Source of the DNA: an uncultured Pseudomonadota bacterium
GTDB lineage: Bacteria > SAR324 > NAC60-12
Length of the DNA stretch: 64,000 nt
Direction of reading: 5' to 3'
Assembly (NCBI GenBank): GCA_964597275.1
Contig: CAZQXS010000002.1
Location: 191-64,190, forward strand
The notes beneath the pieces were generated by a model. The model saw only the letters and a list, made by a program, of their open reading frames with translations, had not been told where the DNA came from and searched no databases. Both the position numbers and the translations under genes were made by a program. The stretch's first letter is position 1. Each line of letters starts with the position of its first letter. Of the stretch, positions 28,569 through 44,409 are shown in pieces.

Positions 28569-30149
28569 ATGCGATCAAAAGCAATCAAACTCATCTCCCT
28601 GCTGGGAATGGCAGTGCTGGCGTTGGCAGTGGCCAATGTGCAGGCTGGCACCCCAAAGCGTGGTGGCACCCTGATCTGGAGTGTCAGTGGAACGCCCCGT
28701 CACCTCAACCCGGCGGTGCAGTCCGGCATTGCCACGGGGCAGCCCGGAGCGCAGCTTTTTGCCACTCCGCTGCGCTTTGACGAGAACTGGAACCCGCAAC
28801 CCTATCTGGCCCAGTCTTGGAGCATCTCCGACGACGGTCTTTCGGTGACGCTCAACCTTGTGGAAGGCGCGACCTTCCACGACGGCAAGCCAATCACCTC
28901 CAAGGACGTCAAGTTCTCCATCAACACGATCAAGGCCAACCATCCGTTCAAGACGATGTTTGCTCCGGTTAAAGACGTTGAGACTCCGGACAAACACACG
29001 GCGGTGATCAAGCTCTCCAAACCACACCCTGCCTTGTTACTGGCACTGTCCTCGCAGTTGGGTGCCATCATTCCAGAACATATCTATGGCGATGGACAGG
29101 ACCCCAAGAAGCATCCGCGCAACTCTGAGAATGTCGTGGGTTCCGGCCCCTTCAAGCTGGTGGAGTTTGTCCGCGATCAGCACATCATCATGGAGCGCTA
29201 CGACGGTTTCTTCATTAAGGGTCGTCCGTATCTTGACAAGATCGTGCAACGCATTATTAGGGACGGCTCTGTAAGGGTTTTGGGCCTCAAGAACGGAGAA
29301 ATTCACATCTCTCCGTTTGAAGCCCTGCCTCAGAATATCAACTCCTCCAAGAAGGAAGCGCACCTGACGGCAACCGATCAGGGTTATGCTGCGATTGGCC
29401 CAATCGTCTGGTTGGCGTTCAACACTAAGCGTGAGCCTACGAGCGACAAGCGTGTTCGGCAGGCTATCGCCCATGCGGTGGACCGAAATTTCATCGTCAA
29501 GGCAATCATGCTCGGGTCCTCGAAACCAGCGTACACTGGCATTCACCCGGACAGTGTCTTCCACGAACCGAATGTGGACCGCTACGACCTTGACCTCGAA
29601 AAGGCCAATGCCATCCTTGATGAGGCGGGATATGCACGAGGGAGCGACGGCATGCGCTTCAAGCTCCACATTGACTACGGTTGGGCAGGAGTCAAAAATC
29701 TCGCTGAGTACCTCAAGCCTCAACTCAAAAAGATCGGCATTGACGTAACCGTGAGGGCCTCTCCTGATTTCCCATCTTGGGCCAAGCGCATTTCCACTTG
29801 GGATTTCGACATGACTTGGGACGTGGTCTTCAACTGGGGTGACCCCGTGATTGGTGTCCACCGCACCTACCTGTGCAACAACGCCAAAAACGGCGTGATC
29901 TGGTCTAACACCCAGCAGTACTGCAACCCGATCGTTGATTCGGTGCTGGATCTGGCTGGAAAGGAGAACAACCAAGATAAACGCATCGCGCTCTACTCCA
30001 TTGCTCAGAGAATGCTGGCCGAAGACTTGCCGGTTTACTGGACCCATACCCTCCCCTACCACACCATTTACAACCACACCAAGGTAGGCAATCCTCCCCA
30101 GACCATTTGGGGAACGTCCTCTCCGCTGGATGAAGTCTATCTGAAGTAG
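28569..30149 (+). CDS. ABC transporter substrate-binding protein, family 5 (peptide/opine/nickel-type, DppA/OppA-like)
   Basis: 526 aa with signal peptide (MRSKAIKLISLLGMAVLALAVANVQA), SBP_bac_5 architecture. Confidence 0.85.
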   Translation: MRSKAIKLISLLGMAVLALAVANVQAGTPKRGGTLIWSVSGTPRHLNPAVQSGIATGQPGAQLFATPLRFDENWNPQPYLAQSWSISDDGLSVTLNLVEGATFHDGKPITSKDVKFSINTIKANHPFKTMFAPVKDVETPDKHTAVIKLSKPHPALLLALSSQLGAIIPEHIYGDGQDPKKHPRNSENVVGSGPFKLVEFVRDQHIIMERYDGFFIKGRPYLDKIVQRIIRDGSVRVLGLKNGEIHISPFEALPQNINSSKKEAHLTATDQGYAAIGPIVWLAFNTKREPTSDKRVRQAIAHAVDRNFIVKAIMLGSSKPAYTGIHPDSVFHEPNVDRYDLDLEKANAILDEAGYARGSDGMRFKLHIDYGWAGVKNLAEYLKPQLKKIGIDVTVRASPDFPSWAKRISTWDFDMTWDVVFNWGDPVIGVHRTYLCNNAKNGVIWSNTQQYCNPIVDSVLDLAGKENNQDKRIALYSIAQRMLAEDLPVYWTHTLPYHTIYNHTKVGNPPQTIWGTSSPLDEVYLK

Positions 30150-30255
30150 ATTTCACCCTTGCACAAATGGCTCCCATGCTTTGCGTGGGAGCCTCTGGCA
30201 ACATTAGGATTTCGGATAGTGACCCAAGGGAATGTGATCGCCGCTTCCCTTTTTT

Positions 30256-30333
30256 GTCATCCCCGCACAGGCGGGAATCCAGAATTTTCAGTGAGTTACA
30301 GGCTCCCTGGATCCCCGCCTGTGCGGGGATGAC
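30256..30333. repeat. REP-like palindromic element, family B variant ('VIPAQAGIQ'), copy 3
   Basis: GTCATCCCCGCACAGGCGGGAATCCAG-loop-CTGGATCCCCGCCTGTGCGGGGATGAC. Generates spurious peptide ...FVIPAQAGIQ... Confidence 0.7.
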
Positions 30334-30344
30334 GAATTGCAGAA

Positions 30345-30377
30345 GACGCGATTCGCGGGCATGGCTCGCTCCTACGG
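30345..30377. repeat. REP-like element, family C ('VGAGHARESR'), copy 1
   Basis: ACGCGATTCGCGGGCATGGCTCGCTCCTACGG. Near-identical to 35385-35417. Contains palindrome GCGGGCATGGC(T/C)CGC. Confidence 0.65.
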
Positions 30378-30417
30378 ATTCTCGAAGAAGCAACCCACTC
30401 CTTTTCTCCAAACCACG

Positions 30418-31398
30418 GTGCAATTCCTTTCGATCACGATCAAGCGGGTCGGCTTTGGGCTGGTGCTGCTACTGGCCGTGCTGGTGCTGAATTTTTCCCT
30501 GATGCACCTCGCTCCGGGAGACATTGCGGACACTATCGCCATTGATGCCGGAGGTGCGGACGAGGAGGTGATGGCCGCGATCCGCAAGGACTACGGTCTG
30601 GACCTGCCTGTCTGGCAGCAGTTGCTGAAGTACCTCGCCAAGGTCGCCGTCCTCGATCTGGGCTACTCCTTCTACTACAACATCTCCGTTACCGACCTGA
30701 TTCTCGAACGCCTGCCCGCAACGCTCCTGCTGGTGATCAGCGCCCAGATGTTGGCGATCACGGTTGGGGTCGTACTTGGCGTGATGGCCGCCCGCAAACC
30801 CAAGGGACTCACGAGCCACTTCGTCACCGTGCTCGCGCTGGTAGGCTACTCCGCCCCCGTGTTCTGGACGGGGATCATGCTGATCATCCTATTTTCCTCC
30901 ACCTTCCCTGTCTTTCCGATTGCAGGAATGATGGATGTCTCGGTGGAACGCGAGGGATTTGCCCACGTGCTGGATGTCTTGCACCACCTCGCGTTGCCCT
31001 CCGTCACGCTCGCTTCTATCTTCCTTGCTCTTTACAGTCGTCTTGCGCGGGCGAGCATGCTGGATGTGCTGGGGTCGGACTATGTGCGCACTGCACAGGC
31101 TAAAGGACTGTCGGAGTTTCTGGTCGTGTACAAGCATGCCCTGCGCAATGCATTGCTTCCGGTGGTAACGATGGCAGGGCTAGTATTTTCCGGGGTAATT
31201 TCAGGGGCCGTGCTGGTGGAAACCGTCTTTAGCTGGCCGGGATTGGGCACACTGGCTGTGCAGGCCATCGTGGCCCGTGACACGCCTACGATTCTCGGCA
31301 TTCTCTTCTTTTCCTCGCTGGTGGTGGTGGTGGCCAACCTGCTCACCGATCTTGTGTACCGCGTCATTGACCCCCGCATCAAGACCTCCAATGCCTGA
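30418..31398 (+). CDS. ABC transporter permease (DppB/OppB-like)
   Basis: ORF 30337..31398. The N-terminal 27 codons lie inside repeat C1 (MARSYGFSKK...), so a GTG start at 30418 (VQFLSITIKRVGFGLVLLLAVLVLNFSLMHLAPGD) is preferred; start uncertain. Confidence 0.7.
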   Translation: MQFLSITIKRVGFGLVLLLAVLVLNFSLMHLAPGDIADTIAIDAGGADEEVMAAIRKDYGLDLPVWQQLLKYLAKVAVLDLGYSFYYNISVTDLILERLPATLLLVISAQMLAITVGVVLGVMAARKPKGLTSHFVTVLALVGYSAPVFWTGIMLIILFSSTFPVFPIAGMMDVSVEREGFAHVLDVLHHLALPSVTLASIFLALYSRLARASMLDVLGSDYVRTAQAKGLSEFLVVYKHALRNALLPVVTMAGLVFSGVISGAVLVETVFSWPGLGTLAVQAIVARDTPTILGILFFSSLVVVVANLLTDLVYRVIDPRIKTSNA

Positions 31399-32284
31399 AC
31401 CACAAGCCGCGCAAGCCAAGCCCGAATTGGAGGCGGTCCGGGAGGAGCATCCCCTGATGGAAACCGTCCGCATGTTCGCCAAGAACTACTCGGCAGTGGC
31501 TGGGTTCTCCGTGTTGTCCGTCATCGTGGTTGTCTCTCTGATCGGACCGCTCGTTTACACCACTGATCCATTTGAGATGGTTTGGGCACCCTTCACCCAT
31601 CCTGGAAATGAAGGTTTCATTTTGGGAACCGATTACCTAGGACGCGACCTGCTGGCCCAAATCATCCACGGCGGAAAAGCCACATTGGCTGTCGGCTGCG
31701 CGGCGGCTTTGCTCAGTGTCTTCATCGGCATCACCATCGGCGCCCTCTCCGGGTTCTACCGGGGCTGGGTGGAAGAGGTGTTGATGCGCATCACGGAGTT
31801 TTTTCAGGTGCTGCCGACTTTGCTGTTCTCAATGGTGATTGTCGCGCTTTTTGGTGCCTCGCTTCCGGTGATCACCTTCGCCATCGGCATTGTGAGTTGG
31901 ACGGCGGTGGCCCGGATCACGCGGGCGGAGTTCTTGCGCATCCGTGAACTCGAATACGTCACGGCCTCGCGCTCGGTCGGGGCACGGAACTTTTACCTGA
32001 TGATGCAGGTGATCCTGCCCAACGCGCTTCCGCCGATTGTCGTGCAGGCCACACTGATGGTTGGCTCGGCCATCCTCTTCGAGGCCGGACTGAGCTTCCT
32101 CGGACTCAGCGACCCCAACGTGATGAGTTGGGGAGCGATCATGGGCAACAACCGTCAGTACATCTTGCAGGAGAGTTTCACGCTCATGTATCCCGGACTG
32201 GCGATCTTCATCACCGTGCTGGCCATCAGTCTCGTCGGTGACGGTCTCAATGACGCGCTCAATCCCAAACTGCGTCAGCGCTGA
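31391..32284 (+). CDS. ABC transporter permease (DppC/OppC-like)
   Basis: Start at MPEPQAAQAKPE (Met39 of ORF 31277..32284), overlapping the upstream permease stop by 8 bp. Five to six TM segments, EAA loop. Confidence 0.8.
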   Translation: MPEPQAAQAKPELEAVREEHPLMETVRMFAKNYSAVAGFSVLSVIVVVSLIGPLVYTTDPFEMVWAPFTHPGNEGFILGTDYLGRDLLAQIIHGGKATLAVGCAAALLSVFIGITIGALSGFYRGWVEEVLMRITEFFQVLPTLLFSMVIVALFGASLPVITFAIGIVSWTAVARITRAEFLRIRELEYVTASRSVGARNFYLMMQVILPNALPPIVVQATLMVGSAILFEAGLSFLGLSDPNVMSWGAIMGNNRQYILQESFTLMYPGLAIFITVLAISLVGDGLNDALNPKLRQR

Positions 32285-33292
32285 ATGATGCCCGATTCGA
32301 TTCTTTCCGTCGAAAACCTGACCGTCACCTTCAAGACCCGCTTTGGGTTGATCCCGGTGATTGACGATGTTTCCTTCGGCATTGCGCCGGGGGAGATTCT
32401 GGGGATTGTCGGGGAGTCCGGTTGTGGAAAAACGATGACCTCGCTGGCGATCATGCGGCTGATGCCGGAACAGGGCAAGGTCACGGGCGGGACAATCCGC
32501 CTTGCCGGGGAAGACTTGGTGCTGGCCTCGGAGCCGCGCATGCGGGACATCCGGGGCAACGAAATCTCGATGGTCTTTCAGGAGCCGATGACCTCGCTCA
32601 ATCCCGTCTTCAGTGTGGGTGAGCAAATCGCCGAGGTGCTGATCGCCCATCAGGGCTTGAGCAAGCGCGAAGCCAAGTCACAGGCGGTGGGGTTGTTGGA
32701 AGCGGTCAAGATTCCCCTGCCCGCCCGCCGCGTCAATGACTACCCGCATCAGCTTTCCGGAGGCATGCGCCAGCGCGTGATGATCGCCATCGCGCTCGCC
32801 TGCAAGCCCAAGGTGCTGATCGCGGACGAGCCGACCACCGCACTGGACGTGACCGTGCAGGCGCACATCTTCGAGCTGCTTCAGGAACTCCGGGACCAGA
32901 CCGGAACCTCGATCATCCTCATCACCCACGACATGGCCTCGGTCGCCGAGATGGCCGAGCGCGTGATGGTCATGTACGCCGGACGCAAGGTGGAGGAAGG
33001 CCCGGTGCGCGAAGTGCTGACCAATCCACTGCATCCCTACACGCAAGGGTTGATCGCCTGCGTGCCGCACCTCACAGAAACGATCACTCCGGAACGGCAC
33101 GACCTGCTGGAGATTCCGGGCATGGTGCCCCCGATGCGGCATTTTGGGCGCAACGAATGCCTGTTTGCGCCGCGTTGCAAGTTTGTCGAGGAGCGTTGCC
33201 GCAACGAGCGTCCGATGGACGGCGAACGCGCCGCCAATCACCTTGCCGCCTGCTGGGTGGAAAACCCGAACGCCGAGAAGGTTTTCGCATGA
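32285..33292 (+). CDS. ABC transporter ATP-binding protein (DppD/OppD-like)
   Basis: Walker A GESGCGKT, signature [12 protein letters not shown], Walker [12 protein letters not shown], oligopeptide C-terminal domain. Confidence 0.85.
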
Positions 33293-34263
33293 CCGCCGAA
33301 GCCACTGTCCTCGAAGTCAACGATCTGGCGGTGCGTTTTCGTATGAAGCGCAAGCACCTTTTTGATCCGCCGAGCCATGTCCATGCCGTGGATGGCGTGT
33401 CCTTCACGGTGGAGCGCGGCAAGACGCTGGGACTCGTCGGCGAATCCGGTTCCGGGAAAACGACGACCGGGCTGGCGATTGCCCGCTTAGTTGAGGCCAA
33501 CGGCGGTTCTGTGAAGATCAAGGGCACCGAGGTCTTGGGGCTGGAAGGCGAAGCTCTCCGCAATCAGCGACAGCACATCCAGTTCGTCTTTCAGGATCCC
33601 TATTCCTCGCTGAATCCGCGATTGCGGGCGGGTCGGCTGGTCCGGGAAGCGTTGGACCGCCTCAAGGTGGGAACGCCCGCCGAGCGCAGTCAGCGCGTCA
33701 GCGAGTTGTTCGGGCAGGTGGGGCTGAGTCGGGAGCAGGAGCGGCTGTTTCCGCATCAATTTTCCGGCGGGCAACGACAACGACTGGGCATCGCCCGTGC
33801 GCTGGCGTCGCATCCGGATTTGCTGATTTGCGACGAGCCGGTTTCTGCGCTGGACGTGGCGGTGCAGGCACAAATCCTCAACCTGCTCCGACGGCTCCAG
33901 CAGGACATGGGCCTGACCTACCTCTTCATCTCCCACGACCTCGGTGTGGTCCAGCACATGTGCGACGAAATCGCGGTCATGTACGTTGGGCAGATCGTGG
34001 AGCAGACCGACCGCGTGTCGCTCTTCCAGAATCCGTTGCACCCCTACACCAAGGGCTTGCTTGCCTCGGTGCCGTCCGCCGACCCCAACCGCCAACGCAC
34101 CAAGCAGACGAGCATCATGGGCGAGCCACCGAGTCCGGTGGACCCGCCTCCGGGCTGCCGCTTCGCCTCACGCTGTCCGCTTGCGGAAGACCGTTGCCGC
34201 GCCGAAACTCCCGCCCTGCGCCCCATCGAATCCGGACACCGCGTGGCCTGCCACTTGGTGTAG
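33289..34263 (+). CDS. ABC transporter ATP-binding protein (DppF/OppF-like)
   Basis: Start at [15 protein letters not shown] (Met45 of ORF 33157..34263), 4-bp ATGA overlap. GESGSGKTT, FSGGQRQRLGIA, LICDEPVSALD. Confidence 0.85.
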   Translation: MTAEATVLEVNDLAVRFRMKRKHLFDPPSHVHAVDGVSFTVERGKTLGLVGESGSGKTTTGLAIARLVEANGGSVKIKGTEVLGLEGEALRNQRQHIQFVFQDPYSSLNPRLRAGRLVREALDRLKVGTPAERSQRVSELFGQVGLSREQERLFPHQFSGGQRQRLGIARALASHPDLLICDEPVSALDVAVQAQILNLLRRLQQDMGLTYLFISHDLGVVQHMCDEIAVMYVGQIVEQTDRVSLFQNPLHPYTKGLLASVPSADPNRQRTKQTSIMGEPPSPVDPPPGCRFASRCPLAEDRCRAETPALRPIESGHRVACHLV

Positions 34264-35487: not shown

Positions 35488-36219
35488 TCAGGGCAGGGGC
35501 AGCTTGGCCATGCGTCCGCCGTCCACGGTGTAGATTTGTCCAGTCACAAATGCCGCCGCGTCCGAGGCCAGCCACGCCACGAGTTCCGCGACTTCTTCAG
35601 GAGTTCCGGTGCGCCCCACCGGATGGATGCCTCCGATGTCCTTGCGAAACTGCTCCGGAGCGGGCATGGCGTTGATGAAATCCACGTTGAGTTCGGTGTC
35701 AATCCAGCCCGGTGCCACGGCGTTGCAGCGAATCCCCTCCGGGCCATGATCCACCGCAACCGCACGGGTGAGCCCATGCAACCCGGCCTTGGAGGCGCAG
35801 TAAGCTGGATGCCGGGGATTCGACCCCAGCCCCTCGATGGAGCCGATGTTGACAATCGCCCCCCGCCCGCGCAAGAGCGGGAGGGCGTGCTTGATCAGCA
35901 GGAACGGTGCCCGCAGGTTGACCGCGAGGGTGCGCTCCCAATCGGTCAGCGGCATTTCCGCCACCGTGCCTTCGAGCATCACGCCCGCATTGTTGACCAG
36001 AATGTCCAGCCGACCTGCTTGAGATTTCAGTTGGGCGATGACCGCTTCCGGCACTTCCGGATCAGCAAGGTCCGCCCGGATGGTCTCGAAGCCGTCCGCA
36101 TTCTGCCGCTGGGCGGTGAACACGCGGATGCCGTCCACCGCAAAACGCCGGGCACAGGCCAGCCCGATTCCGCTGCGACCGCCCGTCACCAGTGCCACCT
36201 TTTGCACCGACTCGCTCAT
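35488..36219 (-). CDS. short-chain dehydrogenase/reductase (SDR)
   Basis: Start at MSESVQKVALVTGGRSGIG (Met15 of ORF 35488..36261). TGxxxGxG, NNAG, catalytic YxxxK (YCASK). Confidence 0.85.
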   Translation of the reverse strand: MSESVQKVALVTGGRSGIGLACARRFAVDGIRVFTAQRQNADGFETIRADLADPEVPEAVIAQLKSQAGRLDILVNNAGVMLEGTVAEMPLTDWERTLAVNLRAPFLLIKHALPLLRGRGAIVNIGSIEGLGSNPRHPAYCASKAGLHGLTRAVAVDHGPEGIRCNAVAPGWIDTELNVDFINAMPAPEQFRKDIGGIHPVGRTGTPEEVAELVAWLASDAAAFVTGQIYTVDGGRMAKLPLP

Positions 36220-38757: not shown

Positions 38758-38937
38758 ATGACCAAACGCGAACTTCTGAAGGTGCTTAAGAAGGCGGGAT
38801 GGCAGCTCATCCGAGAAGGAAAGCACGAAGTGTAGGGAAAGGACGGGCAAACGATTCCGATCCCAAGACACAAGGGGGACATTCCGGTTGGGACAGCCAA
38901 CAACATCCTCAAGCGAGCCGGAATCAAGCAGAGCTAG
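38758..38937 (+). pseudogene. hicA: hicA toxin gene inactivated by an amber nonsense mutation (TAG at 38821-38823)
   Basis: Manual translation: MTKRELLKVLKKAGWQLIREGKHEV*GKDGQTIPIPRHKGDIPVGTANNILKRAGIKQS*. Matches the HicA consensus (GSHHvY..DG...tiP.H.gKDi..GTl..ILKQAGI). The stop replaces the conserved aromatic (Tyr). Confidence 0.6.
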
Positions 38938-38957
38938 CGAGCTACGAAAAAAGGATT

Positions 38958-39347
38958 ATGGAATACTTCAATGCGGTTTTCACAGAAGAAGACGCTTCTG
39001 TTTTAGTCTCGATTCCTGATGTGGAAATCTGTGAGACGTTCGGGGGTTGTTGGGAGGAAGCCTACGAAAATGCGGTGGATGCCCTCGCTGCCTGCCTATC
39101 GGTTCCAGAAACGATCGTTCATGCCAAGAGTTCGCTCGACCTATTGCAATCGAAGCACCCAGACGCTCAGATTATCCCGATTCCGGTGGACGAGAAAATC
39201 AAGCAGTCCTACGAACAAACCAAGCGGTTTAACGTGATTTTCCCTCAGAGCTTGCTGACTGCTGTTGATGAGTACCGAGCCAAAACAGGCTGGAAGCGCT
39301 CCGCATTTTTGGCGGTTGCCGCTAAGGAGTATATTGAATCTCACTAA
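38958..39347 (+). CDS. hicB: HicB-family antitoxin with C-terminal ribbon-helix-helix
   Basis: MEYFNAVFTEEDASVLVSIPDVEICETFGGCWEEAYENAVDAL... plus C-terminal RHH (FNVIFPQSLLTAVDEYRAKTGWKRSAFLAVAAKEYI). Low-GC region. The ORF track's 38799 start is an upstream read-through. Confidence 0.65.
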   Translation: MEYFNAVFTEEDASVLVSIPDVEICETFGGCWEEAYENAVDALAACLSVPETIVHAKSSLDLLQSKHPDAQIIPIPVDEKIKQSYEQTKRFNVIFPQSLLTAVDEYRAKTGWKRSAFLAVAAKEYIESH

Positions 39348-39361: not shown

Positions 39362-40267
39362 GTGCAATTTGAAGGAATCTACACCCCGATCATCACGCCG
39401 CACACGGAAGACGGGGCCATTGACAAGGAAGCCTTTGCGGAGGTGGCGGAGTACCTGATCGCCTCTGGAGTCCACTGCATCGTGGTGGGTGGCTCCACCG
39501 GAGAGTACTACGCCCAGACCAACGAGGAGCGCATCGAGTTGATGAATTTCGCCCGCGAGGTCATCAACCAGCGCACCCTGCTGATGGTCGGAACCGGAGC
39601 CACGCGCACGGAGGATTGCGTGATGTTCGCCAAGGCCGCCAAGGAGTCGGGGGCGGATTTTCTGCTGATCAACTCCCCGCCGTATGCCGTGCCGACCGAT
39701 CTGGAGAACGCAATGCACGCGCTTCAGATTGACCGGGCCGCAAACCTGCCGATCATGCTCTACAACTATCCCGGACGCACCGGAACCCACATGGGCGAGG
39801 AGTTTCTGGACCGGGTGGGACGCTCGCCGAATTTCTGCGGCATCAAGGAAAGTTCCGGGGACATCAACCGCGTCCACCTGCTCGCCCGCGACTATCCGCA
39901 CATCGGACTGTGCTGCGGCATGGACGACCAAGCGCTGGAGTTCTTCGCGTGGGGAGCGCGGTGTTGGGTTTGCGCTGGCTCCAACTTCCTTCCCAAGGAA
40001 CACAACGCCCTCTACGAAGCCTGCGCCCTCGAAGGCGATTACACCAAGGGGCGGCGCATCATGTCAGCGCTGTTGCCTTTGATGCGCGTGCTGGAGCAGG
40101 GCGGAAAGTTCGTGCAGAGCGTCAAGTACGGCTGCGAGTTGGAAGGGCTGCGCCCCGGATCGCCGCGAGCGCCGCTACGCCCCCTCACCAAAGACGAGAA
40201 GCGCGAACTGGAGCAGGTGATTCGCACCCTGAAAACCACGATTTCCAACATCCTAGCGGAAGGCTGA
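39362..40267 (+). CDS. DapA/NAL-family class I aldolase/lyase (dihydrodipicolinate synthase family; e.g. pyrroline-hydroxy-carboxylate deaminase or keto-deoxy-acid aldolase)
   Basis: 301 aa; GSTGE motif, Schiff-base Lys in ...GIKESSGD..., TIM barrel length typical of the family. Confidence 0.8.
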   Translation: MQFEGIYTPIITPHTEDGAIDKEAFAEVAEYLIASGVHCIVVGGSTGEYYAQTNEERIELMNFAREVINQRTLLMVGTGATRTEDCVMFAKAAKESGADFLLINSPPYAVPTDLENAMHALQIDRAANLPIMLYNYPGRTGTHMGEEFLDRVGRSPNFCGIKESSGDINRVHLLARDYPHIGLCCGMDDQALEFFAWGARCWVCAGSNFLPKEHNALYEACALEGDYTKGRRIMSALLPLMRVLEQGGKFVQSVKYGCELEGLRPGSPRAPLRPLTKDEKRELEQVIRTLKTTISNILAEG

Positions 40268-40270
40268 TCC

Positions 40271-41788
40271 ATGTCTGATTTGTTGACTCACGAAGAATAT
40301 CTTGCGCTCGCCAAGAACCTCAGCTTCCCGAGCACCAGCTTTGTGGATGGCTCCTTCCGGGCGGCACAGTCCGGTAAGACCTTTCCTACGATCAATCCCG
40401 CCACGGGAGCAACGCTCGCCGAAGTCGCGGCGTGTGGTCCGGAAGATGTGGACTTCGCCGTGCAGAAAGCACGGGAGGCGTTTGACGACGGTCACTGGCG
40501 CTGCCAGCATCCGAACGAACGCAAGGAGGTGCTGATCCGGCTGGCCAAGTTGATTTCCCGAAATCGGCGGGAACTCGCCGTGATGGAAAGCCTCGACAGC
40601 GGCAAGCCGATCCGCGACTGCGAGACGATTGACGTTCCGGAGACAATCCACACGCTCAAGTGGCACGCGGAGCTGATTGACAAGCTCTACGACCAAACCG
40701 CCCCTGTGGGCGAGGATGCACTGGCGGTGATCAGCCGTGAGCCGATTGGCGTGGTTGGAGCCGTGTTGCCGTGGAACTTTCCGATGCTGATGCTGGCATG
40801 GAAGATCGGCCCTGCGCTTGCCGCCGGGAATTCCGTGATCGCCAAGCCCGCCGAACAGACTTCGCTGACCGCTCTGCGGATTGCCGAACTGACGATGGAG
40901 GCAGGGGTTCCTGCGGGAGTGCTGAACGTGCTGACCGGATTCGGCCCGGAGGTGGGCGAACCGCTCGGTCGGCATCCGAACGTGGACATGGTGAGCTTCA
41001 CCGGGTCCACCGAAACGGGGCGGCGCTTCCTGCACTACGCGGCGGACTCCAACCTCAAGAAGGTGGTGCTGGAGTGCGGCGGCAAGAACCCGTTCGTGGT
41101 CTTCGACGACGCGGAGGAACTCGACTTGATCGCCGAGCATGTCGTCAACGGAGCCTTCTGGAACATGGGAGAGAACTGCTCGGCGGCCTCCCGGCTGATT
41201 GTCCATGAGGCGGTCAAGCAGCCCCTGCTGGAACGCGTACTGGCCCGGGCCGGGGAATGGCGCACGGGCGATCCGCTCAATCCGGTCAACCAGCTTGGGG
41301 CGCTCGTGGATCAGGAACACTTCGACAAGGTCTGCTCCTATTTGGAGCAAGGCAAGACAGCGAAGGCAAAACTCATTTTGGGTGGCAGCGCGGTTGATGG
41401 CGTTTACGTCGAGCCGACTATCTTCGATGGGGTGTCCCCAGAAGCTTCGCTGGCCCGCGAGGAAATCTTCGGCCCGGTCCTCTCCGTCCTCACCGTCACC
41501 AGCAACGATGCCGCCATCGCTCTGGCAAACGACACCGATTATGGCCTGACCGCCTCGGTCTTTTCTGGAAACGCCAAACGCGCCCTCCGCGCCGCCCGCG
41601 CCCTGCGGGCCGGGACCGTCACCGTCAACTGCTACGGCGAAGGTGACATCACCACGCCTTTTGGCGGATACAAGCAGTCCGGCTTCGGCGGACGCGACAA
41701 TTCGATCCACGCCCACGACCAGTACACGGAACTCAAGACCATCTGGGTGGACCTCTCCGACCGAGCCGCTGGGGAGGCGGTGGAATGA
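40271..41788 (+). CDS. NAD(P)-dependent aldehyde dehydrogenase
   Basis: 505 aa; catalytic Cys in ...GENCSAASR..., Glu in LECGGKNP, GxGxxG-like FTGSTETG. Confidence 0.85.
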   Translation: MSDLLTHEEYLALAKNLSFPSTSFVDGSFRAAQSGKTFPTINPATGATLAEVAACGPEDVDFAVQKAREAFDDGHWRCQHPNERKEVLIRLAKLISRNRRELAVMESLDSGKPIRDCETIDVPETIHTLKWHAELIDKLYDQTAPVGEDALAVISREPIGVVGAVLPWNFPMLMLAWKIGPALAAGNSVIAKPAEQTSLTALRIAELTMEAGVPAGVLNVLTGFGPEVGEPLGRHPNVDMVSFTGSTETGRRFLHYAADSNLKKVVLECGGKNPFVVFDDAEELDLIAEHVVNGAFWNMGENCSAASRLIVHEAVKQPLLERVLARAGEWRTGDPLNPVNQLGALVDQEHFDKVCSYLEQGKTAKAKLILGGSAVDGVYVEPTIFDGVSPEASLAREEIFGPVLSVLTVTSNDAAIALANDTDYGLTASVFSGNAKRALRAARALRAGTVTVNCYGEGDITTPFGGYKQSGFGGRDNSIHAHDQYTELKTIWVDLSDRAAGEAVE

Positions 41789-41864
41789 CAAAAGAGCCTG
41801 GGGTGGAATGTCCACCCCAAAACCCAATCGGGACTTCCTGAACCCTAACCCATCCCATGCAATG

Positions 41865-42995
41865 TCCAATCGCTTGAAAAGTGTTCTGCTCCTTGTGCTT
41901 TTTGCATCCGTTGCATGCTCCAAGGCGGTGACCACCAGCAAAACGATCCCCATGCCAAGTGGGCCGATTGAGACGGTGAACCAGTGCCAAGTTCTGGACA
42001 CCCACACCTACTGCTTGTCCGCTCAAGCCCCGGCTCCTCCCGCGACACCCGGACCATGGGGAGAGCTTTCGGCCTACTCCCCTGAAGTGTTCTGTGCTTC
42101 TGACTTGCCCGCCAACATTTGTGACGAAATCACAACCGCCCTGCTGGCAGCGGCTGTAGAATGGGGGAACTATGGTCCACTGGAGTACTGGGTCTTGGGC
42201 ATTGACCAACCAGCGGCTCAGACCCTGACTAAGCTTTACTGTGGACGACGTGACCAGCGGGGACAGTTTGCCAAGGCCCGCTGCCTGCGGAGGCACAACA
42301 ACTCGCGACATGGATTTGAGTCCTATCGTGCAACCGGAGCAGAAGCCGTTGCCTCTGGCAGGCCCAGAGGAAGTGCGGGTCTGAATGGAAATCGTGACTG
42401 GGGAATTCATTTTTTCACATCGTCACTCCCCGTCGGGTTCACGGATCTGTTCAAGGTTCCGGGGGTCGAAGAGCAGAAGACGGTCTTTCACGAGTACTTT
42501 CATGCCGTGCAGCACTCACACATCCAAACCAAAGACCGGAACCAGCGGGATCAACTCCTTGGCCCGGTCTGGTTCAACGAAGGAGGTGCCGAGTACATGG
42601 CCCAAAAGGCGACCAAGAAGTTGCGAGAGTCTGGGGCACTCCCTGAATTGAACGAAACGGGCCGCTGGCCCTTTGTCTTCAAAGAAAAAATGCAGAGAAA
42701 GCTCAGGAAGGGTCTGAAAAAGCTGAAAAGCTGCTCTGGCCTACGGTTGCAGGACTTGACCTACGAGACACCTTGCAAAGGCGCCCACTACGATTTGGGA
42801 GCTTGGGCACATGCCTACCTTGACCATAAGTTCGGCTCGCAGGCATTGCTGGGAACCTTCTACCCCAGCCTCAACGAATTGGGCTGGGAGGGGGCGTTCA
42901 CGAAGGCTTACGGCATAACCTCCGAAGAGTTCTATACGGAGTTCGATCAATTTCTGAAGCTGCCGCTCAATCAGCAGATGGCGATCCTCCCCTAG
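41865..42995 (+). CDS. secreted/lipoprotein-like hypothetical protein with HExxH motif (putative zinc-dependent hydrolase)
   Basis: Start at MSNRLKSVLLLVLFASVAC (signal peptide with possible lipobox), taken instead of ORF start 41643, which overlaps the ALDH gene. HEYFHAVQH motif. Somewhat lower GC. Confidence 0.45.
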   Translation, partial: SNRLKSVLLLVLFASVACSKAVTTSKTIPMPSGPIETVNQCQVLDTHTYCLSAQAPAPPATPGPWGELSAYSPEVFCASDLPANICDEITTALLAAAVEWGNYGPLEYWVLGIDQPAAQTLTKLYCGRRDQRGQFAKARCLRRHNNSRHGFESYRATGAEAVASGRPRGSAGLNGNRDWGIHFFTSSLPVGFTDLFKVPGVEEQKTVFHEYFHAVQHSHIQTKDRNQRDQLLGPVWFNEGGAEYMAQKATKKLRESGALPELNETGRWPFVFKEKMQRKLRKGLKKLKSCSGLRLQDLTYETPCKGAHYDLGAWAHAYLDHKFGSQALLGTFYPSLNELGWEGAFTKAYGITSEEFYTEFDQFLKLPLNQQMAILP

Positions 42996-43062
42996 CCTAA
43001 GCGATTTTTCCACAGAGCGGCTAAATCCAGAGACGGCACGGAATCACACTTCATCAGAGACC

Positions 43063-44409
43063 ATGTCCCAATCCATCAAGGTCGGCAACATCAATCACGG
43101 CAACCCCGGGGTTTCGGGGTGGTACGCGATTCTTCCAGAGCCGGAGCCGCCCCGGATTTTGGAGGAAGCGATCACCGCCGGCTGGCTGGTGATCGGCGGT
43201 GGCTTTGCGGGGCTGTCGGCGGCCCGGCGGCTCCAGCAACTCCGGGAGGGAGAGCGCATCGTGTTACTGGACGCAATCCGCATCGGCGAGGGCAGTTCCG
43301 GGCGCAACTCCGGTTTCATGATTGATCTCCCCCACGACATCAGCACGGACAGCTACGCCGGAGCCGTGGAGCGCGATGTCCAGCAAACCCGGCAAAACCG
43401 CTACGCCATTGACTTTGCCGCCGGAGCCGCCGAGGAATACGGATTTGCGCAAGAGGTGTTCAATCCGTGCGGGAAGATCAACGCCGCCGCCAGTGAATCC
43501 GGAGATCAGCACAACCGGGAGTACGTGGAACACCTGAAGGCGATGGGGGAAGAGGCCACCTGGCTGGATGCGGCAGACATGAAGCGCATCACCGGAAGCG
43601 ACTACTACCTGAGTGGGCTACTCACGCCCAAAACGGTGACGATCCAGTCGGCGGCCTACGTCCGGGGCTTCGCGGCGGGGCTTTCCCCGCAGGTGGAGAT
43701 TTACGAAAACACGCCCGTGGTTGCGCTGGAGCGGCGCGATGGCGTTTGGACCGCACGCACACCGCAAGGCTCCGTCTCCGCACCCAAGGTGATCCTCAGC
43801 GTCAACGGACACCTCCAGAGCTTCGGCTTCCTCAAGCGGCGGCTGATGCACATCTTCCTCTACGCCTCGATGACCCGTGCCCTGAGCGAAGCAGAGATGC
43901 ACAAGCTTGGAGGCGAACCGAGTTGGGGCGTGGCTCCGGCCAATCCCTTCGGCTCGTCGGTCCGCAAGATTTCCGGGGTCGGCGGACACCGCATCCTGAC
44001 GCGCAACAAGTTCCACTTCTCGGCCTCGCTGGAAGCGTCCGAACGCGACATCCAGCGGGCGGTGCGGGATCACGACCGCAGCTTTCGGCGGCGCTTCCCG
44101 ATGCTCAAGGATGTGGAGATGGAATACCGCTGGGGCGGACGCTTGTGCCTGAGTTGGAATAGCGTCCCGGTGTTTGGCGAATTGGAAGAGGGACTGTTTG
44201 CGGCCTGCTGCCAAAACGGGCTGGGCGCATCCAAAGGCACACTCTCTGGAATGCTGGCGGCAGAATACGCCTCCGGGTTCGAGAACTCCTACATCAAGGA
44301 CTACCTCAACGAAGCCCAACCCACCCGTCTGCCTCCGGAGCCGTTTGCCACGATTGGTGCCACCGCCTACCTCAACTGGCAAGAGTGGCGGGCGGGGCTG
44401 GAAAAATGA
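43063..44409 (+). CDS. FAD-dependent oxidoreductase, PuuB/OrdL-like (gamma-glutamylputrescine oxidase / DAO family)
   Basis: N-terminus WYAILPEPE...VIGGGFAGLSAARRL...GSSGRNSGF is characteristic of the PuuB/OrdL branch of the DAO family. Confidence 0.75.
   Translation: MSQSIKVGNINHGNPGVSGWYAILPEPEPPRILEEAITAGWLVIGGGFAGLSAARRLQQLREGERIVLLDAIRIGEGSSGRNSGFMIDLPHDISTDSYAGAVERDVQQTRQNRYAIDFAAGAAEEYGFAQEVFNPCGKINAAASESGDQHNREYVEHLKAMGEEATWLDAADMKRITGSDYYLSGLLTPKTVTIQSAAYVRGFAAGLSPQVEIYENTPVVALERRDGVWTARTPQGSVSAPKVILSVNGHLQSFGFLKRRLMHIFLYASMTRALSEAEMHKLGGEPSWGVAPANPFGSSVRKISGVGGHRILTRNKFHFSASLEASERDIQRAVRDHDRSFRRRFPMLKDVEMEYRWGGRLCLSWNSVPVFGELEEGLFAACCQNGLGASKGTLSGMLAAEYASGFENSYIKDYLNEAQPTRLPPEPFATIGATAYLNWQEWRAGLEK

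What the first reader, a model, noticed from the sequence alone, without database searches (positions are those of the whole stretch)
28569..44409. Catabolic island 2 around a second MttB paralogue: Dpp-type ABC importer, racemase-superfamily enzyme, tandem SDRs, DapA-family lyase, ALDH, PuuB-like FAD oxidase
A second MttB-superfamily paralogue (37123..38670) lies between a divergently oriented tandem SDR pair and a Asp/Glu/hydantoin-racemase-family gene on one side. On the other side is a DapA-family lyase, aldehyde dehydrogenase and PuuB/OrdL-type FAD oxidase block, with a five-gene family-5 ABC importer upstream. DapA-family deaminase + ALDH + FAD D-amino-acid-type dehydrogenase is the core of hydroxyproline-type catabolism (HypD/HypH/HypO logic). 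MttB homologues have been shown elsewhere to demethylate proline betaine. Together this suggests uptake and demethylation of an N-methylated imino or amino acid, followed by oxidative ring opening. The two MttB paralogues may act sequentially or on different betaines.
Basis: inference. Interest (0 to 1): 0.6.

Follow-up and report, generated by a model that had tools for sequence, protein, structure and literature searches.

The report
B12-type hydroxyproline-betaine breakdown gene cluster
This stretch of a marine SAR324 bacterium's genome is a real, widely conserved gene cluster that most likely imports and breaks down a methylated hydroxyproline-type osmolyte, probably hydroxyproline betaine, and its first methyl-removing step appears to use a vitamin-B12-type methyltransferase rather than the oxygen-dependent enzyme described so far.

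Summary

The core is not a chance juxtaposition. I examined 48 genomes that carry an ortholog of the second MttB paralogue (75-92% identical) with at least 8 kb of flank on each side. Within 10 kb:
- 38 carry the DapA-like/ALDH/FAD-oxidase triad.
- 25 carry the SDR pair.
- 15 carry, immediately after MttB, an ortholog of HpbD, the characterised 4-hydroxyproline betaine 2-epimerase.

In Cereibacter sphaeroides 2.4.1 the same cluster sits next to the experimentally studied rsHpbD and the HpbHIJ transporter.

MttB2 keeps the two carboxylate-binding residues of the glycine betaine enzyme MtgB but lacks its two aromatic residues. This argues for a bulkier carboxylate betaine as substrate.

The SAR324 version is a variant:
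- There is no HpbD. A two-cysteine EutA-like racemase-family gene is present instead.
- A Dpp-type importer replaces the ProX type.
- There is no regulator.
- Two insertions interrupt the cluster: a decayed hicAB module and an unannotated secreted HExxH protein.

Best reading: (hydroxy)proline betaine is imported, epimerised, demethylated via a corrinoid, demethylated a second time, and converted by oxidase, deaminase and ALDH to 2-oxoglutarate.

No biochemistry supports the MttB, SDR or EutA-like roles. I class it as a new variant of a known pathway, of moderate interest.

The parts
28569..30149 (+). Family-5 (Dpp/Opp/Nik-type) periplasmic substrate-binding protein of the importer
   Evidence: PF00496, 289 bits. 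All NCBIfam equivalogs score far below their cut-offs. 94% identical in L001 only. Unrelated family-5 SBPs and Dpp-type operons also flank MttB2 in Roseibium.
30337..32284 (+). Two ABC permeases (DppB-like 30337-31398; DppC-like 31391-32284)
   Evidence: BPD_transp_1, BPD_transp_1_N and OppC_N domains. Gene calls.
32285..34263 (+). Two ABC ATPases with the oligo_HPY C-terminal domain (32285-33292; 33289-34263)
   Evidence: ABC_tran plus oligo_HPY. Gene calls.
34485..35243 (-). EutA-like/AMDase-family (Asp/Glu racemase superfamily) protein; candidate 2-epimerase taking the place of HpbD
   Evidence: PF17645, 81.7 bits. NCBIfam EutA 210.8 bits, below its cut-off of 318. Both catalytic-position cysteines are present (GYGCTSGS, VSCTNL), aligned to maleate isomerase and AMDase. 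Homologs at 53-58% identity sit beside DAO and RidA genes. Next to MttB only here and in L001.
35488..36219 (-). SDR1, classical short-chain dehydrogenase with an NADP(H)-type signature
   Evidence: adh_short_C2, 206 bits. TGGRSGIG...TAQR motif and S/YxxxK, conserved in 39 orthologs. Co-located with MttB2 in 25 of 48 loci.
36216..36956 (-). SDR2, classical short-chain dehydrogenase with an NAD(H)-type signature
   Evidence: adh_short_C2, 182 bits. TGAAGGIG...GAD motif. Matches PDB 3UXY at E=1.1e-108, an SDR with no assigned function; its R. sphaeroides origin is from memory, not shown by the tool output.
37123..38670 (+). MttB2: non-pyrrolysine MttB-superfamily methyltransferase; candidate (hydroxy)proline betaine:corrinoid methyltransferase
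   Evidence: PF06253, 697.9 bits. TIGR02369 274.5 bits, below its cut-off of 525. PDB 4YYC 2.8e-142; MtgB 2QNE/9YCE 1e-103. At the MtgB positions Y97/R312/H348/F356 it has T126/R340/H376/G384, invariant in 120 orthologs. Followed by HpbD in relatives.
38758..39347 (+). Inserted hicAB toxin-antitoxin remnant, not part of the pathway: hicA with an in-frame TAG at 38833-38835; hicB at 38958-39347
   Evidence: HicA_toxin 57.6 bits when read through the stop; HicB_lk_antitox 53 bits. GC3 of 0.56 against about 0.78 for neighbouring genes. Absent from relatives.
39362..40267 (+). DHDPS/NAL-family lyase; candidate pyrroline-4-hydroxy-2-carboxylate dehydratase/deaminase
   Evidence: PF00701, 193.7 bits. 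NCBIfam dapA 183.5 bits, below its cut-off of 206.15. Schiff-base Lys motif (GIKESSG) and GSTGE instead of GTTGE. 58-76% identical orthologs in 56 of 80 loci, plus Rhizobium, Paracoccus, Cereibacter and Leisingera plasmids, usually behind a GntR gene.
40271..41788 (+). NAD(P)-dependent aldehyde dehydrogenase; candidate 2-oxoglutarate semialdehyde dehydrogenase
   Evidence: PF00171, 561.6 bits. Best NCBIfam hit PuuC, 556.8 bits, below its cut-off of 850; GucD 358.7. PDB 7UYY 1.8e-224, then AldA/KauB/PuuC-like enzymes. Orthologs at 63-78% identity in 55 of 80 loci; absent from L001.
41862..42995 (+). Inserted gene, not part of the pathway: secreted HExxH...NEGxAEY (gluzincin-like) protein of an undescribed family
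   Evidence: Open frame with an N-terminal hydrophobic signal-like segment. 434 cluster representatives at E<=1e-3, with H210/E211/H214/E240 conserved. No Pfam or NCBIfam family above cut-off. Public annotation calls only 79 aa.
43063..44409 (+). DAO-family FAD oxidoreductase; candidate cis-4-hydroxy-D-proline (or N-methyl derivative) oxidase/dehydrogenase
   Evidence: PF01266, 150 bits. Weak NCBIfam hits to L-pipecolate oxidase only. No PDB sequence match below 1e-10. Orthologs at 40-85% identity in 58 of 80 loci, always beside the ALDH and DapA-like genes.
19662..21764 (+).
   Evidence: Oxidored_FMN plus Pyr_redox_2. Same architecture as, and 27% identical to, the Rhizobium flavin oxidoreductase next to the triad. 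A 56% ortholog sits directly upstream of MttB2 in Roseovarius azorensis L077. Other OYE-type genes directly follow MttB2 in Nioella.
26911..28131 (-).
   Evidence: Rieske plus Ring_hydroxyl_A. Best NCBIfam hit GbcA, 139.7 bits, well below its cut-off of 670. Gene call. Rieske genes also lie near MttB2 in Ruegeria and Leisingera.

Best explanation
The region is a catabolic cluster for a hydroxylated, N-methylated imino-acid osmolyte. The most likely substrate is 4-hydroxyproline betaine, possibly also proline betaine. It is a B12-type variant of the known Hpb pathway.

Proposed steps (all inferred; none is shown biochemically):
1. The Dpp-type ABC system imports the betaine.
2. The two-cysteine EutA-like enzyme inverts C2. 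This is the job HpbD does in relatives, and it yields the D-configured isomer.
3. MttB2 transfers one N-methyl group to a corrinoid protein. That protein is encoded elsewhere, as with the MtgC/MtgD module of aerobic marine bacteria. The methyl group ends up on tetrahydrofolate.
4. A flavoprotein removes the second methyl group. The candidate is the OYE/TMADH-type enzyme at 19662-21764.
5. The DAO-family enzyme oxidises cis-4-hydroxy-D-proline to pyrroline-4-hydroxy-2-carboxylate.
6. The DHDPS-family enzyme dehydrates and deaminates that product to 2-oxoglutarate semialdehyde.
7. The ALDH oxidises the semialdehyde to 2-oxoglutarate.

The conserved NAD-type plus NADP-type SDR pair has no place in the published pathway. 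My best guess is an oxidise-then-reduce inversion of the ring hydroxyl through a keto intermediate.

What is shown: gene content, family membership, conserved synteny and active-site residue patterns.
For: Synteny:
- MttB2 orthologs (75-92% identical) in Alpha- and Gammaproteobacteria, Chloroflexota and SAR324 carry the triad within 10 kb in 38 of 48 well-flanked loci, the SDR pair in 25 of 48, and HpbD in 15 of 48.

Link to the characterised Hpb system:
- The gene after MttB in Roseibium matches pdHpbD (4E8G/4IZG/4J1O) at E=2e-162 and pbHpbD (2PMQ/4H2H) at 4.5e-133.
- The C. sphaeroides 2.4.1 plasmid has MttB, enolase, SDR, SDR, then FAD-oxidase, ALDH, DHDPS, GntR, then ProVWX, then GlxA. The enolase is 78% identical to pdHpbD. 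Gene order fits hpbD=RSP_4007 and hpbHIJ=RSP_4000-3998 of PMC3950512.
- The same layout occurs on a Leisingera plasmid.

The triad as a hydroxyproline module:
- It sits with a 4-hydroxyproline epimerase in Paracoccus methylovorus.
- It sits with a stachydrine-type flavin demethylase, ETF, formaldehyde-detoxification genes, ProX and putA in Rhizobium.
- It matches the DAAO/DHDPS/ALDH logic described for tHyp-B users (PMC4113996).

MttB2 pocket:
- The carboxylate binders R340 and H376 are kept. The glycine-betaine-specific aromatic residues are replaced by T126 and G384. All four positions are invariant in 120 orthologs.
- The R. pomeroyi glycine betaine enzymes MtgB1/2 sit in unrelated contexts.

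Other support:
- Aerobic marine bacteria including SAR324 carry MtgC/D, and the substrates of their extra MttB paralogues are an open question (PMC12478193).
- The EutA-like protein has both cysteines of the two-base mechanism, and its homologs pair with DAO and RidA genes.
- OYE-type demethylase candidates adjoin MttB2 in Roseovarius and Nioella.
- Hydroxyproline betaine and proline betaine occur in marine plankton.
Against: - No enzyme of this cluster family other than HpbD has been assayed. The accessible Hpb paper (PMC3950512) never mentions the MttB or SDR genes; the original Nature 2013 paper could not be read.
- The window itself has no HpbD, ProX, 4-hydroxyproline epimerase or regulator, and no corrinoid or pterin-binding gene.
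- In a close relative of P. denitrificans (HpbD 95% identical to pdHpbD), the HpbD neighbourhood has different neighbours and no orthologs of this triad. In P. denitrificans itself, where the pathway was proven genetically, the Rieske demethylases are essential.
- The closest characterised relatives of the ALDH are amino-aldehyde dehydrogenases (PuuC/KauB), not GucD-type 2-oxoglutarate semialdehyde dehydrogenases.
- The DAO resembles pipecolate oxidase and PuuB types only weakly.
- The DapA-like protein is at most 38% identical to any S. meliloti megaplasmid paralogue.
- The SDR pair is unexplained by the model.
- The closest relative, L001, lacks both the SDRs and the ALDH.
Confidence: 0.55

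Rival explanations
1. The cluster degrades a different N-methylated compound by amine-oxidase and aldolase chemistry. Candidates are a hydroxylated pipecolate or lysine-type betaine, or hydroxyproline by the 'mammalian' route. In that route the DAO enzyme oxidises the C-N bond distal to the carboxylate, the PuuC-like ALDH oxidises the resulting amino-aldehyde, and the DHDPS-family enzyme acts as a 4-hydroxy-2-oxo-acid aldolase releasing pyruvate.
For: - The nearest characterised relatives of the ALDH are PuuC, KauB and betaine-aldehyde dehydrogenases rather than GucD.
- The only NCBIfam hits of the DAO are weak, to L-pipecolate oxidase and aminophosphonate oxidoreductase.
- The DapA-like protein is equidistant (about 30%) from DHDPS and KDG aldolases in the PDB.
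- A class-III aminotransferase accompanies the cluster in the window and in Roseovarius azorensis.
- Orthology of the triad to assayed hydroxyproline enzymes was not demonstrated.
Against: - The triad recurrently sits with enzymes that make D-configured (hydroxy)proline substrates: HpbD, 4-hydroxyproline epimerase and the EutA-like racemase. These would be pointless for an L-specific distal oxidation.
- No aminotransferase is conserved in the cluster.
- The published tHyp-B pathway uses exactly the DAAO/DHDPS/ALDH superfamilies.
Confidence: 0.2
2. MttB2 is simply a glycine betaine methyltransferase (an MtgB). It is co-located with hydroxyproline genes because osmolyte-catabolism genes tend to cluster, so the demethylase and the triad are not steps of one pathway.
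For: - MtgB is the only MttB-family activity shown in aerobic marine bacteria (PMC12478193).
- MttB2 keeps the carboxylate-binding Arg and His of MtgB.
- 9 of 48 well-flanked loci have MttB2 without the triad, SDRs or HpbD nearby.
Against: - Both aromatic residues that bind the trimethylammonium group in MtgB are replaced by Thr and Gly in all 120 orthologs. In MtgB the Y97A and F356L substitutions raise Km several hundred-fold.
- The glycine-betaine-induced R. pomeroyi MtgB1/2 lie in unrelated neighbourhoods.
- MttB2 is in the same operon as HpbD, directly upstream, in many genomes.
- No dimethylglycine or sarcosine genes lie in the cluster.
Confidence: 0.12
3. In this SAR324 genome the cluster is decaying or no longer works as a unit. 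It has lost HpbD and all regulators, has been invaded by hicAB and an unrelated gene, and is flanked by a pseudogene.
For: - No GntR, GlxA, LysR or HpbD homolog is in the window.
- A hicA pseudogene and an inserted secreted-protease-like gene split the operons.
- A frameshifted Cds1-like gene lies directly downstream.
- The sister contig L001 lacks the SDRs and the ALDH.
Against: - All catabolic ORFs are intact and full length, with catalytic motifs preserved.
- Their GC3 matches the host.
- MttB2, DapA, DAO, the importer and EutA are 81-94% identical to L001, which indicates purifying selection.
Confidence: 0.08

Closest known systems
[quoted passage not shown] 2013, Kumar et al. 2014)
   Same: - The orthologous cluster in C. 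sphaeroides 2.4.1 contains the characterised rsHpbD and adjoins the Pro-B-induced HpbHIJ transporter.
- The overall logic matches: import, C2 epimerisation, two N-demethylations, then a DAAO-family oxidase, a DHDPS-family deaminase and an ALDH giving 2-oxoglutarate.
   Different: - The published first demethylase is a Rieske monooxygenase (HpbB1C1). Here a corrinoid-type MttB homolog sits in the operon.
- The window has no HpbD (an EutA-like gene instead), no ProX-type transporter (a Dpp type instead) and no regulator.
- A conserved SDR pair has no role in the published scheme.
MtpB of Eubacterium limosum (proline betaine:corrinoid methyltransferase) and other non-Pyl MttB-superfamily quaternary-amine methyltransferases (MtgB, MtcB, MtyB, MthB)
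   Same: - Same superfamily and TIM-barrel fold family (PF06253).
- No pyrrolysine codon.
- The Arg and His that bind the substrate carboxylate are conserved.
   Different: - Those enzymes come from strict anaerobes, where they feed acetogenesis or methanogenesis and have dedicated corrinoid partners next door.
- MttB2 belongs to aerobic marine and soil bacteria, has no partner gene nearby, and sits inside an oxidative catabolic cluster.
MtgBCD(E) split methionine synthase/glycine betaine demethylase of Ruegeria pomeroyi (Mausz et al. 2025)
   Same: - An aerobic, cobalamin-dependent system in which interchangeable MttB-family subunits are thought to use one shared MtgC/MtgD core.
- SAR324 is reported to carry mtgC.
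   Different: - MtgB1/2 act on glycine betaine and lie in other genomic contexts.
- MttB2 lacks the glycine-betaine-type aromatic pair.
- mtgC and mtgD were not found in this window.
Bacterial D-hydroxyproline route (4HypE/HypRE, HypO/LhpB, HypD/LhpC, HypH/LhpG)
   Same: The same three enzyme superfamilies occur in a single operon. Relatives associate them with a 4-hydroxyproline epimerase.
   Different: - The sequences form their own subfamilies. The DapA-like protein is at most 38% identical to S. meliloti megaplasmid paralogues.
- The DAO has no close solved or curated relative.
- The ALDH is PuuC/KauB-like.
EutA of ectoine/hydroxyectoine utilisation clusters
   Same: Best NCBIfam match (210.8 bits). 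EutA is a predicted racemase acting on a cyclic hydroxylated amino-acid-like osmolyte (the role of EutA is from my own knowledge of the Eut/Doe literature).
   Different: - The score is below the EutA cut-off of 318.
- No eutB, eutC, eutD or eutE lies nearby. The adjacent PALP gene is a Cds1-like pseudogene.
- Its homologs pair with DAO and RidA genes rather than with ectoine genes.

Membership tests
MttB superfamily (PF06253) | Full-length match to the MTTB profile above the gathering score | tested here: met
   697.9 bits against a cut-off of 25, covering profile positions 2-500 of 500.
Pyrrolysine-type trimethylamine methyltransferase MttB (TIGR02369) | Score above the equivalog cut-off, and an in-frame UAG (pyrrolysine) codon | tested here: not met
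   274.5 bits against a cut-off of 525. The ORF 37123-38670 is uninterrupted. PDB MttB 7XCL matches only at 3e-31.
MtgB glycine betaine:corrinoid methyltransferase | Glycine-betaine-binding residues Y97 and F356 (cation-pi) plus R312 and H348 (carboxylate) | tested here: not met
   MttB2 has T126, G384, R340 and H376. The carboxylate pair is kept and the aromatic pair is lost, in all 120 orthologs.
Corrinoid-dependent three-component methyltransferase system | A cognate corrinoid protein and a methylcorrinoid:THF methyltransferase | tested here: inconclusive
   Most of the long ORFs (of at least ~180 aa) in the window were scanned; several were not. No B12-binding or pterin-binding domain was found among those scanned. 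Such genes are unlinked in R. pomeroyi too, and SAR324 is reported to have mtgC. The rest of the genome was not available.
Hpb (hydroxyproline betaine/proline betaine) catabolic cluster | HpbD, an enolase-superfamily betaine 2-epimerase/racemase | tested here: not met
   No HpbD homolog in the window (tblastn). It is present directly after the MttB2 ortholog in 15 of 48 well-flanked relatives and in C. sphaeroides and Leisingera.
Hpb (hydroxyproline betaine/proline betaine) catabolic cluster | Rieske-type demethylase HpbB1C1 and flavin demethylase HpbA | tested here: inconclusive
   A Rieske alpha subunit lies at 26911-28131. It is only weakly GbcA-like (139.7 bits against a cut-off of 670), and no reductase partner was seen. 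An OYE/TMADH-type flavoprotein lies at 19662-21764. No HpbA or HpbB1 reference sequences were available.
Hpb (hydroxyproline betaine/proline betaine) catabolic cluster | A DAAO-family oxidase, a DHDPS-family deaminase and an ALDH encoded together | tested here: met
   All three families are present and co-conserved. The activity assignment is inferred from context only.
Hpb (hydroxyproline betaine/proline betaine) catabolic cluster | ProX-type betaine ABC transporter (HpbHIJ) | tested here: not met
   No ProX homolog in the window. A Dpp-type family-5 system is present instead.
True dihydrodipicolinate synthase DapA (lysine biosynthesis) | Score above the TIGR00674 cut-off; GTTGE motif; biosynthetic context | tested here: not met
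   183.5 bits against a cut-off of 206.15. The motif is GSTGE. Orthologs lie in catabolic operons headed by a GntR regulator, together with the ALDH and FAD oxidase.
EutA (ectoine utilisation) | Score above the TIGR02990 cut-off and linkage to eutBCDE | tested here: not met
   210.8 bits against a cut-off of 318. No eut genes are nearby, and the neighbouring PALP gene is a Cds1-like pseudogene.
Two-base (Cys/Cys) racemases and isomerases of the Asp/Glu racemase superfamily | Two catalytic cysteines at the conserved positions | tested here: met
   The GYGCTSGS and VSCTNL cysteines align with the maleate isomerase Cys pair and with AMDase position 74 and Cys188 (residue roles are from my own knowledge of those enzymes).
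Puu putrescine pathway (PuuB/PuuC) | PuuC and PuuB equivalog scores, and presence of PuuA and PuuD | tested here: not met
   PuuC scores 556.8 bits against a cut-off of 850, and there is no PuuB model hit. No glutamine-synthetase-like or amidotransferase gene lies in the island.
HicAB type II toxin-antitoxin | Intact HicA toxin and HicB antitoxin genes | tested here: not met
   hicB is intact (53 bits). hicA matches PF07927 (57.6 bits) only when an in-frame TAG at 38833-38835 is read through.

The most novel reading that the evidence does not exclude
The MttB2 family is 75-92% identical across SAR324, Chloroflexota, roseobacters, rhizobia and Gammaproteobacteria. It may be the substrate-binding subunit of a widespread, oxygen-independent, cobalamin-dependent demethylase for hydroxyproline betaine and proline betaine. 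It would plug into the shared MtgC/MtgD core of aerobic bacteria. This would be the first substrate assignment for one of the many 'extra' MttB paralogues of marine heterotrophs.

The reading carries two further undescribed steps:
- An NAD/NADP SDR couple that inverts or oxidises the ring hydroxyl.
- In SAR324, an EutA-like two-cysteine enzyme acting as a non-homologous replacement for the enolase-type epimerase HpbD.
Probability: 0.35. Interest if true: 0.65.

Novelty: new variant of a known kind. Interest (0 to 1): 0.5.

Why it matters
Aerobic marine bacteria carry many MttB-family paralogues. The only activity shown so far is glycine betaine demethylation, and the 2025 R. pomeroyi study explicitly leaves the substrates of the others open.

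This cluster gives one very conserved paralogue family a concrete, testable substrate class: hydroxyproline betaine or proline betaine, both found in marine plankton.

If the reading is right:
- Vitamin B12 availability would be tied to the turnover of a further group of algal and protist osmolytes.
- The textbook Hpb pathway would have a parallel route that needs no oxygen for its first step, plus extra steps (the SDR pair).
- SAR324, an abundant deep-ocean lineage, would be implicated in betaine cycling.

A genetically tractable organism is available for the test. C. sphaeroides 2.4.1 already has hpbD mutants and carries the same cluster.

Tried and rejected
1. I tried to show that the DapA-like, ALDH and DAO proteins are orthologs of assayed hydroxyproline enzymes.
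   - A tblastn search of plasmids found S. meliloti paralogues at only 28-38% identity.
   - The one S. meliloti region I opened is a polysaccharide cluster, not the hyp cluster.
   - The HpbD neighbourhood of a close relative of P. denitrificans (HpbD 95% identical to pdHpbD; L091) has Zn-ADH, OCD and Pro_racemase neighbours and no triad orthologs.
   - Orthology therefore remains unproven.
2. The Nature 2013 Hpb paper and the 2014 MtgB paper are not held. The supplements of the mBio paper are not held either. The HpbE/F/G naming therefore rests on my memory and on PMC4113996.
3. I asked whether the PALP gene downstream could be an EutB-like partner of the EutA-like gene. It cannot: it is a frameshifted Cds1-like cysteine desulfhydrase.
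4. I asked whether the Asp_Glu_race gene near MttB2 in Hoeflea is the same family as the window's EutA-like gene. No significant similarity was found.
5. I asked whether the DAO genes beside EutA-like homologs are orthologs of the window's DAO. They are not.
6. The promoter and terminator scan of the island gave counts at shuffle level and was not used.
7. Searches for papers on the C. sphaeroides locus tags, or linking MttB to proline or hydroxyproline betaine in aerobes, found nothing relevant.
8. I considered that the PGAP GO term 'glyoxylate catabolic process' on the DHDPS-family orthologs might point to a HOG aldolase. I rejected it as generic, because both unrelated DHDPS paralogues in Paracoccus carry it.

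Full report
**Origin and observation.** The window comes from a SAR324 cluster MAG. The MttB paralogue at 37123-38670 is 100% identical to an NCBI SAR324 protein on a 118.7-kb contig, and the public gene calls for that contig map onto the window with an offset of 27122.

- A five-gene Dpp-type importer, 28569-34263. It has an SBP_bac_5 protein, two permeases and two ATPases with the oligo_HPY domain.
- An Asp/Glu-racemase/AMDase-family gene, 34485-35243 (-).
- Two tandem SDRs, 35488-36956 (-), divergent from the MttB paralogue.
- The MttB paralogue itself (PF06253, 697.9 bits).
- A DHDPS-family gene, 39362-40267.
- An ALDH, 40271-41788.
- A DAO-family FAD oxidoreductase, 43063-44409.

The first MttB paralogue is at 16667-18253.

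- A hicA/hicB module lies between MttB and the DapA-like gene. hicA carries an in-frame TAG at 38833-38835.
- A 377-aa secreted HExxH protein lies between the ALDH and the oxidase.

Both insertions have lower GC3 than the catabolic genes, which match the host. Neither is present in relatives.

**Is the grouping more than chance?** Yes. I scanned one genome per GTDB species with MttB2. This returned at least 593 related loci; the best 80 were kept, at 75-92% identity. They come from Alpha- and Gammaproteobacteria, Chloroflexota and SAR324-like MAGs.

tblastn of the window's proteins against these loci gave the following counts within 10 kb, for the 48 loci with at least 8 kb on both sides of MttB:

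| Feature | Loci (of 48) | Identity |
|---|---|---|
| DapA-like/ALDH/DAO triad | 38 | 55-78% (DAO 40-60%) |
| SDR pair | 25 | 60-76% in most loci |
| HpbD ortholog | 15 | 59-66% to the Roseibium HpbD |

The importer and the EutA-like gene are shared only with the closest relative, L001. L001 in turn lacks the SDRs and the ALDH. The conserved core is therefore MttB2 + SDR pair + triad. Transport, epimerisation and regulation are lineage-specific.

**The link to a characterised system.** In Roseibium hamelinense the gene directly after the MttB2 ortholog is an enolase-superfamily protein. It matches PDB 4E8G/4IZG/4J1O at E=2e-162 and 2PMQ/4H2H at 4.5e-133. The mBio 2014 paper identifies these entries as P. 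denitrificans HpbD and a 'related proline betaine racemase'. Orthologs of this gene follow MttB2 in 22 of the 80 loci.

In Cereibacter sphaeroides 2.4.1 a 114-kb plasmid carries these genes in order:
- MttB family, enolase-like, SDR, SDR.
- On the opposite strand: FAD oxidoreductase, ALDH, DHDPS family, GntR.
- A ProV/W/X betaine transporter, then a GlxA-family regulator.

The enolase-like protein is 78% identical to pdHpbD. Counting genes from the published hpbJ/I/H (RSP_3998-4000) to hpbD (RSP_4007) fits this order exactly. The MttB gene would then be the next locus; this is my inference from gene order.

Kumar et al. showed that rsHpbD racemises Pro-B and epimerises Hyp-B. They also showed that hpbD and hpbHIJ are induced by Pro-B. 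Their text never mentions the methyltransferase or the SDRs. A Leisingera plasmid has the same layout, and its enolase gene is the closest plasmid-borne relative of P. bermudensis HpbD.

**The triad.** The DHDPS/ALDH/FAD operon also occurs without MttB:
- On Rhizobium plasmids it lies behind a GntR gene. Its neighbours are a large NADH:flavin oxidoreductase, ETF, glutathione-dependent formaldehyde detoxification genes, a proline/glycine-betaine ABC system, a GlxA regulator and putA.
- In Paracoccus methylovorus it lies next to a 4-hydroxyproline epimerase and a glycine-betaine-type transporter.

The DapA-like protein fails the true-DapA test:
- It scores 183.5 bits against a cut-off of 206.15.
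- It has GSTGE rather than GTTGE.

Sequence-level orthology to assayed enzymes was not established:
- S. meliloti megaplasmid paralogues are at most 38% identical.
- The DAO has no solved relative below 1e-10.
- The ALDH is nearest to PuuC/KauB-type amino-aldehyde dehydrogenases.
- A contig with a 95%-identical pdHpbD has different neighbours and no triad orthologs.

This is why an aldolase/amino-aldehyde route is kept as the main rival.

**What MttB2 is likely to bind.** The 2026 MtgB study defines Y97 and F356 as cation-pi partners of glycine betaine, and R312 and H348 as carboxylate binders. It notes that R312, and partly H348, are kept in the carnitine, butyrobetaine, proline betaine and phosphocholine enzymes, while the aromatic pair is not.

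Mapping through the phmmer alignment to 2QNE gives T126, G384, R340 and H376 in MttB2. These four residues are invariant in all 120 closest orthologs. MttB2 therefore looks like a methyltransferase for a carboxylate-bearing quaternary amine with a roomier pocket than MtgB.

Two further points argue against glycine betaine. In MtgB, Y97A and F356L raise Km several hundred-fold. The glycine-betaine-induced MtgB1/2 of R. pomeroyi lie beside guaA and an outer-membrane protein gene, not in such a cluster.

MttB1 has G/T/E/L at the same four columns. It lacks the carboxylate binders, so it probably acts on a different, non-carboxylate substrate rather than working sequentially with MttB2.

No corrinoid or pterin-binding partner was found among the window ORFs scanned. 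This matches the dispersed MtgC/MtgD arrangement of R. pomeroyi. That study reports mtgC in SAR324 and leaves the substrates of the extra MttB paralogues open.

**Lineage-specific parts.**
- *EutA-like protein.* It scores below the EutA cut-off. It retains both cysteines at the positions of the maleate isomerase pair, so a two-base racemase/epimerase mechanism is feasible. Its 53-58% homologs sit beside DAO-family and RidA genes, an arrangement expected for a racemase feeding a D-specific oxidase. I infer that it substitutes for HpbD, or for a 4-hydroxyproline epimerase, in SAR324. This is not shown.
- *Dpp-type importers.* These recur next to MttB2 in Roseibium at only 23-41% identity. C. sphaeroides uses ProVWX and Hoeflea uses TRAP systems.
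- *Candidate second demethylase.* An OYE/TMADH-type flavoprotein at 19662-21764 is the candidate. A 56% ortholog, with the island-1 aminotransferase and Pot-type transporter, lies directly upstream of MttB2 and the triad in Roseovarius azorensis. Other OYE-type genes follow MttB2 in Nioella.
- *Rieske subunit.* A GbcA-like Rieske subunit is divergent from the importer, so an O2-dependent route may coexist with the corrinoid route.

**The SDR pair.** Both SDRs have intact catalytic S/YxxxK motifs.
- SDR2 and its 39 orthologs end strand beta-2 with Asp, the NAD signature.
- SDR1 and its orthologs carry TGGRSGIG...TAQR, the NADP signature.

The cofactor rules come from the established SDR classification, which is my own knowledge. 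SDR2 matches PDB 3UXY, an SDR structure without assigned function. HpbD genes in Paracoccus and Leisingera are also accompanied by alcohol dehydrogenases. I propose an oxidise/reduce inversion of the ring hydroxyl. This is the weakest part of the model, and the published pathway has no such step.

**Comparison with the known, and verdict.** The region works like the Hpb pathway combined with an MtpB/MtgB-type corrinoid demethylation. It is not a canonical Hpb cluster, because HpbD, the ProX transporter and the regulator are absent from the window. It is also not an MtgB system.

Literature searches found no paper assigning the MttB or SDR genes of this cluster, or linking MttB homologs to proline or hydroxyproline betaine in aerobes. 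Hydroxyproline betaine and proline betaine are present in marine plankton holobionts.

My verdicts:
- Novelty: a new variant of a known pathway.
- Interest: moderate (0.5).
- Confidence in the specific model: 0.55.

Noticed in passing
window 38758-39347: A hicAB toxin-antitoxin module is inserted between MttB2 and the DapA-like gene. hicA (38758-37 nt further, ending 38937) has an in-frame TAG at 38833-38835 and matches HicA_toxin (57.6 bits) only when read through. hicB (38958-39347) is intact. GC3 is 0.56 against about 0.78 for the neighbouring genes.
   Followed up: yes
window 41862-42995: A 377-aa ORF has a signal-like N-terminus and conserved HEYFH...NEGGAEY motifs (gluzincin-like). It has 434 homologous cluster representatives (67 at E<=1e-30) but no Pfam or NCBIfam family. 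The public annotation of the contig calls only a 79-aa fragment here.
   Followed up: partly
window 44450-45314 (-): A Cds1-like L-cysteine desulfhydrase (PALP family) is split by a frameshift near 45160-45190. The N-terminal 52 aa and the C-terminal 245 aa lie in different frames. This is a probable pseudogene or an assembly error.
   Followed up: partly
window 16667-18253 and 18264-28284: MttB1 has G/T/E/L at the four MtgB substrate-binding positions and so lacks the carboxylate-binding Arg and His. It scores higher than MttB2 against the Pyl-type MttB model (375 vs 274 bits). It sits with a class-III aminotransferase, an OYE/TMADH-type flavoprotein, a PotD-type ABC system, an agmatinase-family enzyme and a Rieske oxygenase. 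This suggests a different, non-carboxylate methylated amine as its substrate.
   Followed up: partly
L077 (Roseovarius azorensis) 2-15746; L009, L053, L060 about 7900-11540: In R. azorensis, orthologs of the island-1 aminotransferase (57%), Pot-type ABC genes and OYE flavoprotein (56%) lie directly upstream of the MttB2 ortholog and the triad. In other Roseovarius species an MttB1-like paralogue (43%) immediately precedes MttB2. The two 'islands' of the window are therefore physically linked elsewhere.
   Followed up: partly
L001 234-11119: The closest relative (MttB2 92%, SBP 94%) has the importer, EutA-like, MttB, DapA-like and DAO genes. It has no SDR pair, ALDH, hicAB or HExxH gene. The SDRs and the ALDH are therefore dispensable, or encoded elsewhere, in that lineage.
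   Followed up: partly
L001-L080: MttB2 is unusually conserved for a catabolic enzyme: 75-82% identity between SAR324, Chloroflexota, Alpha- and Gammaproteobacteria. This suggests very strong constraint, recent horizontal spread, or both. Many copies are on plasmids or chromids (Leisingera, Cereibacter, Mesorhizobium, Neorhizobium).
   Followed up: no
L091 934-6532; L092 26405-28620: HpbD genes of the Paracoccus (pdHpbD-like) type are followed by a Zn-dependent alcohol dehydrogenase, an OCD/mu-crystallin gene and a Pro_racemase-family gene. Leisingera carries a second MR/MLE gene paired with an alcohol dehydrogenase. Alcohol dehydrogenases thus recur next to betaine epimerases, although the published pathway has no such step.
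   Followed up: no
window 5588-10952 and 3773-5272: A DUF444/SpoVR/PrkA-like three-gene set and a cobQ (cobyric acid synthase) gene lie upstream in the window. cobQ is consistent with the B12 biosynthetic capacity that a corrinoid-dependent MttB would need.
   Followed up: no
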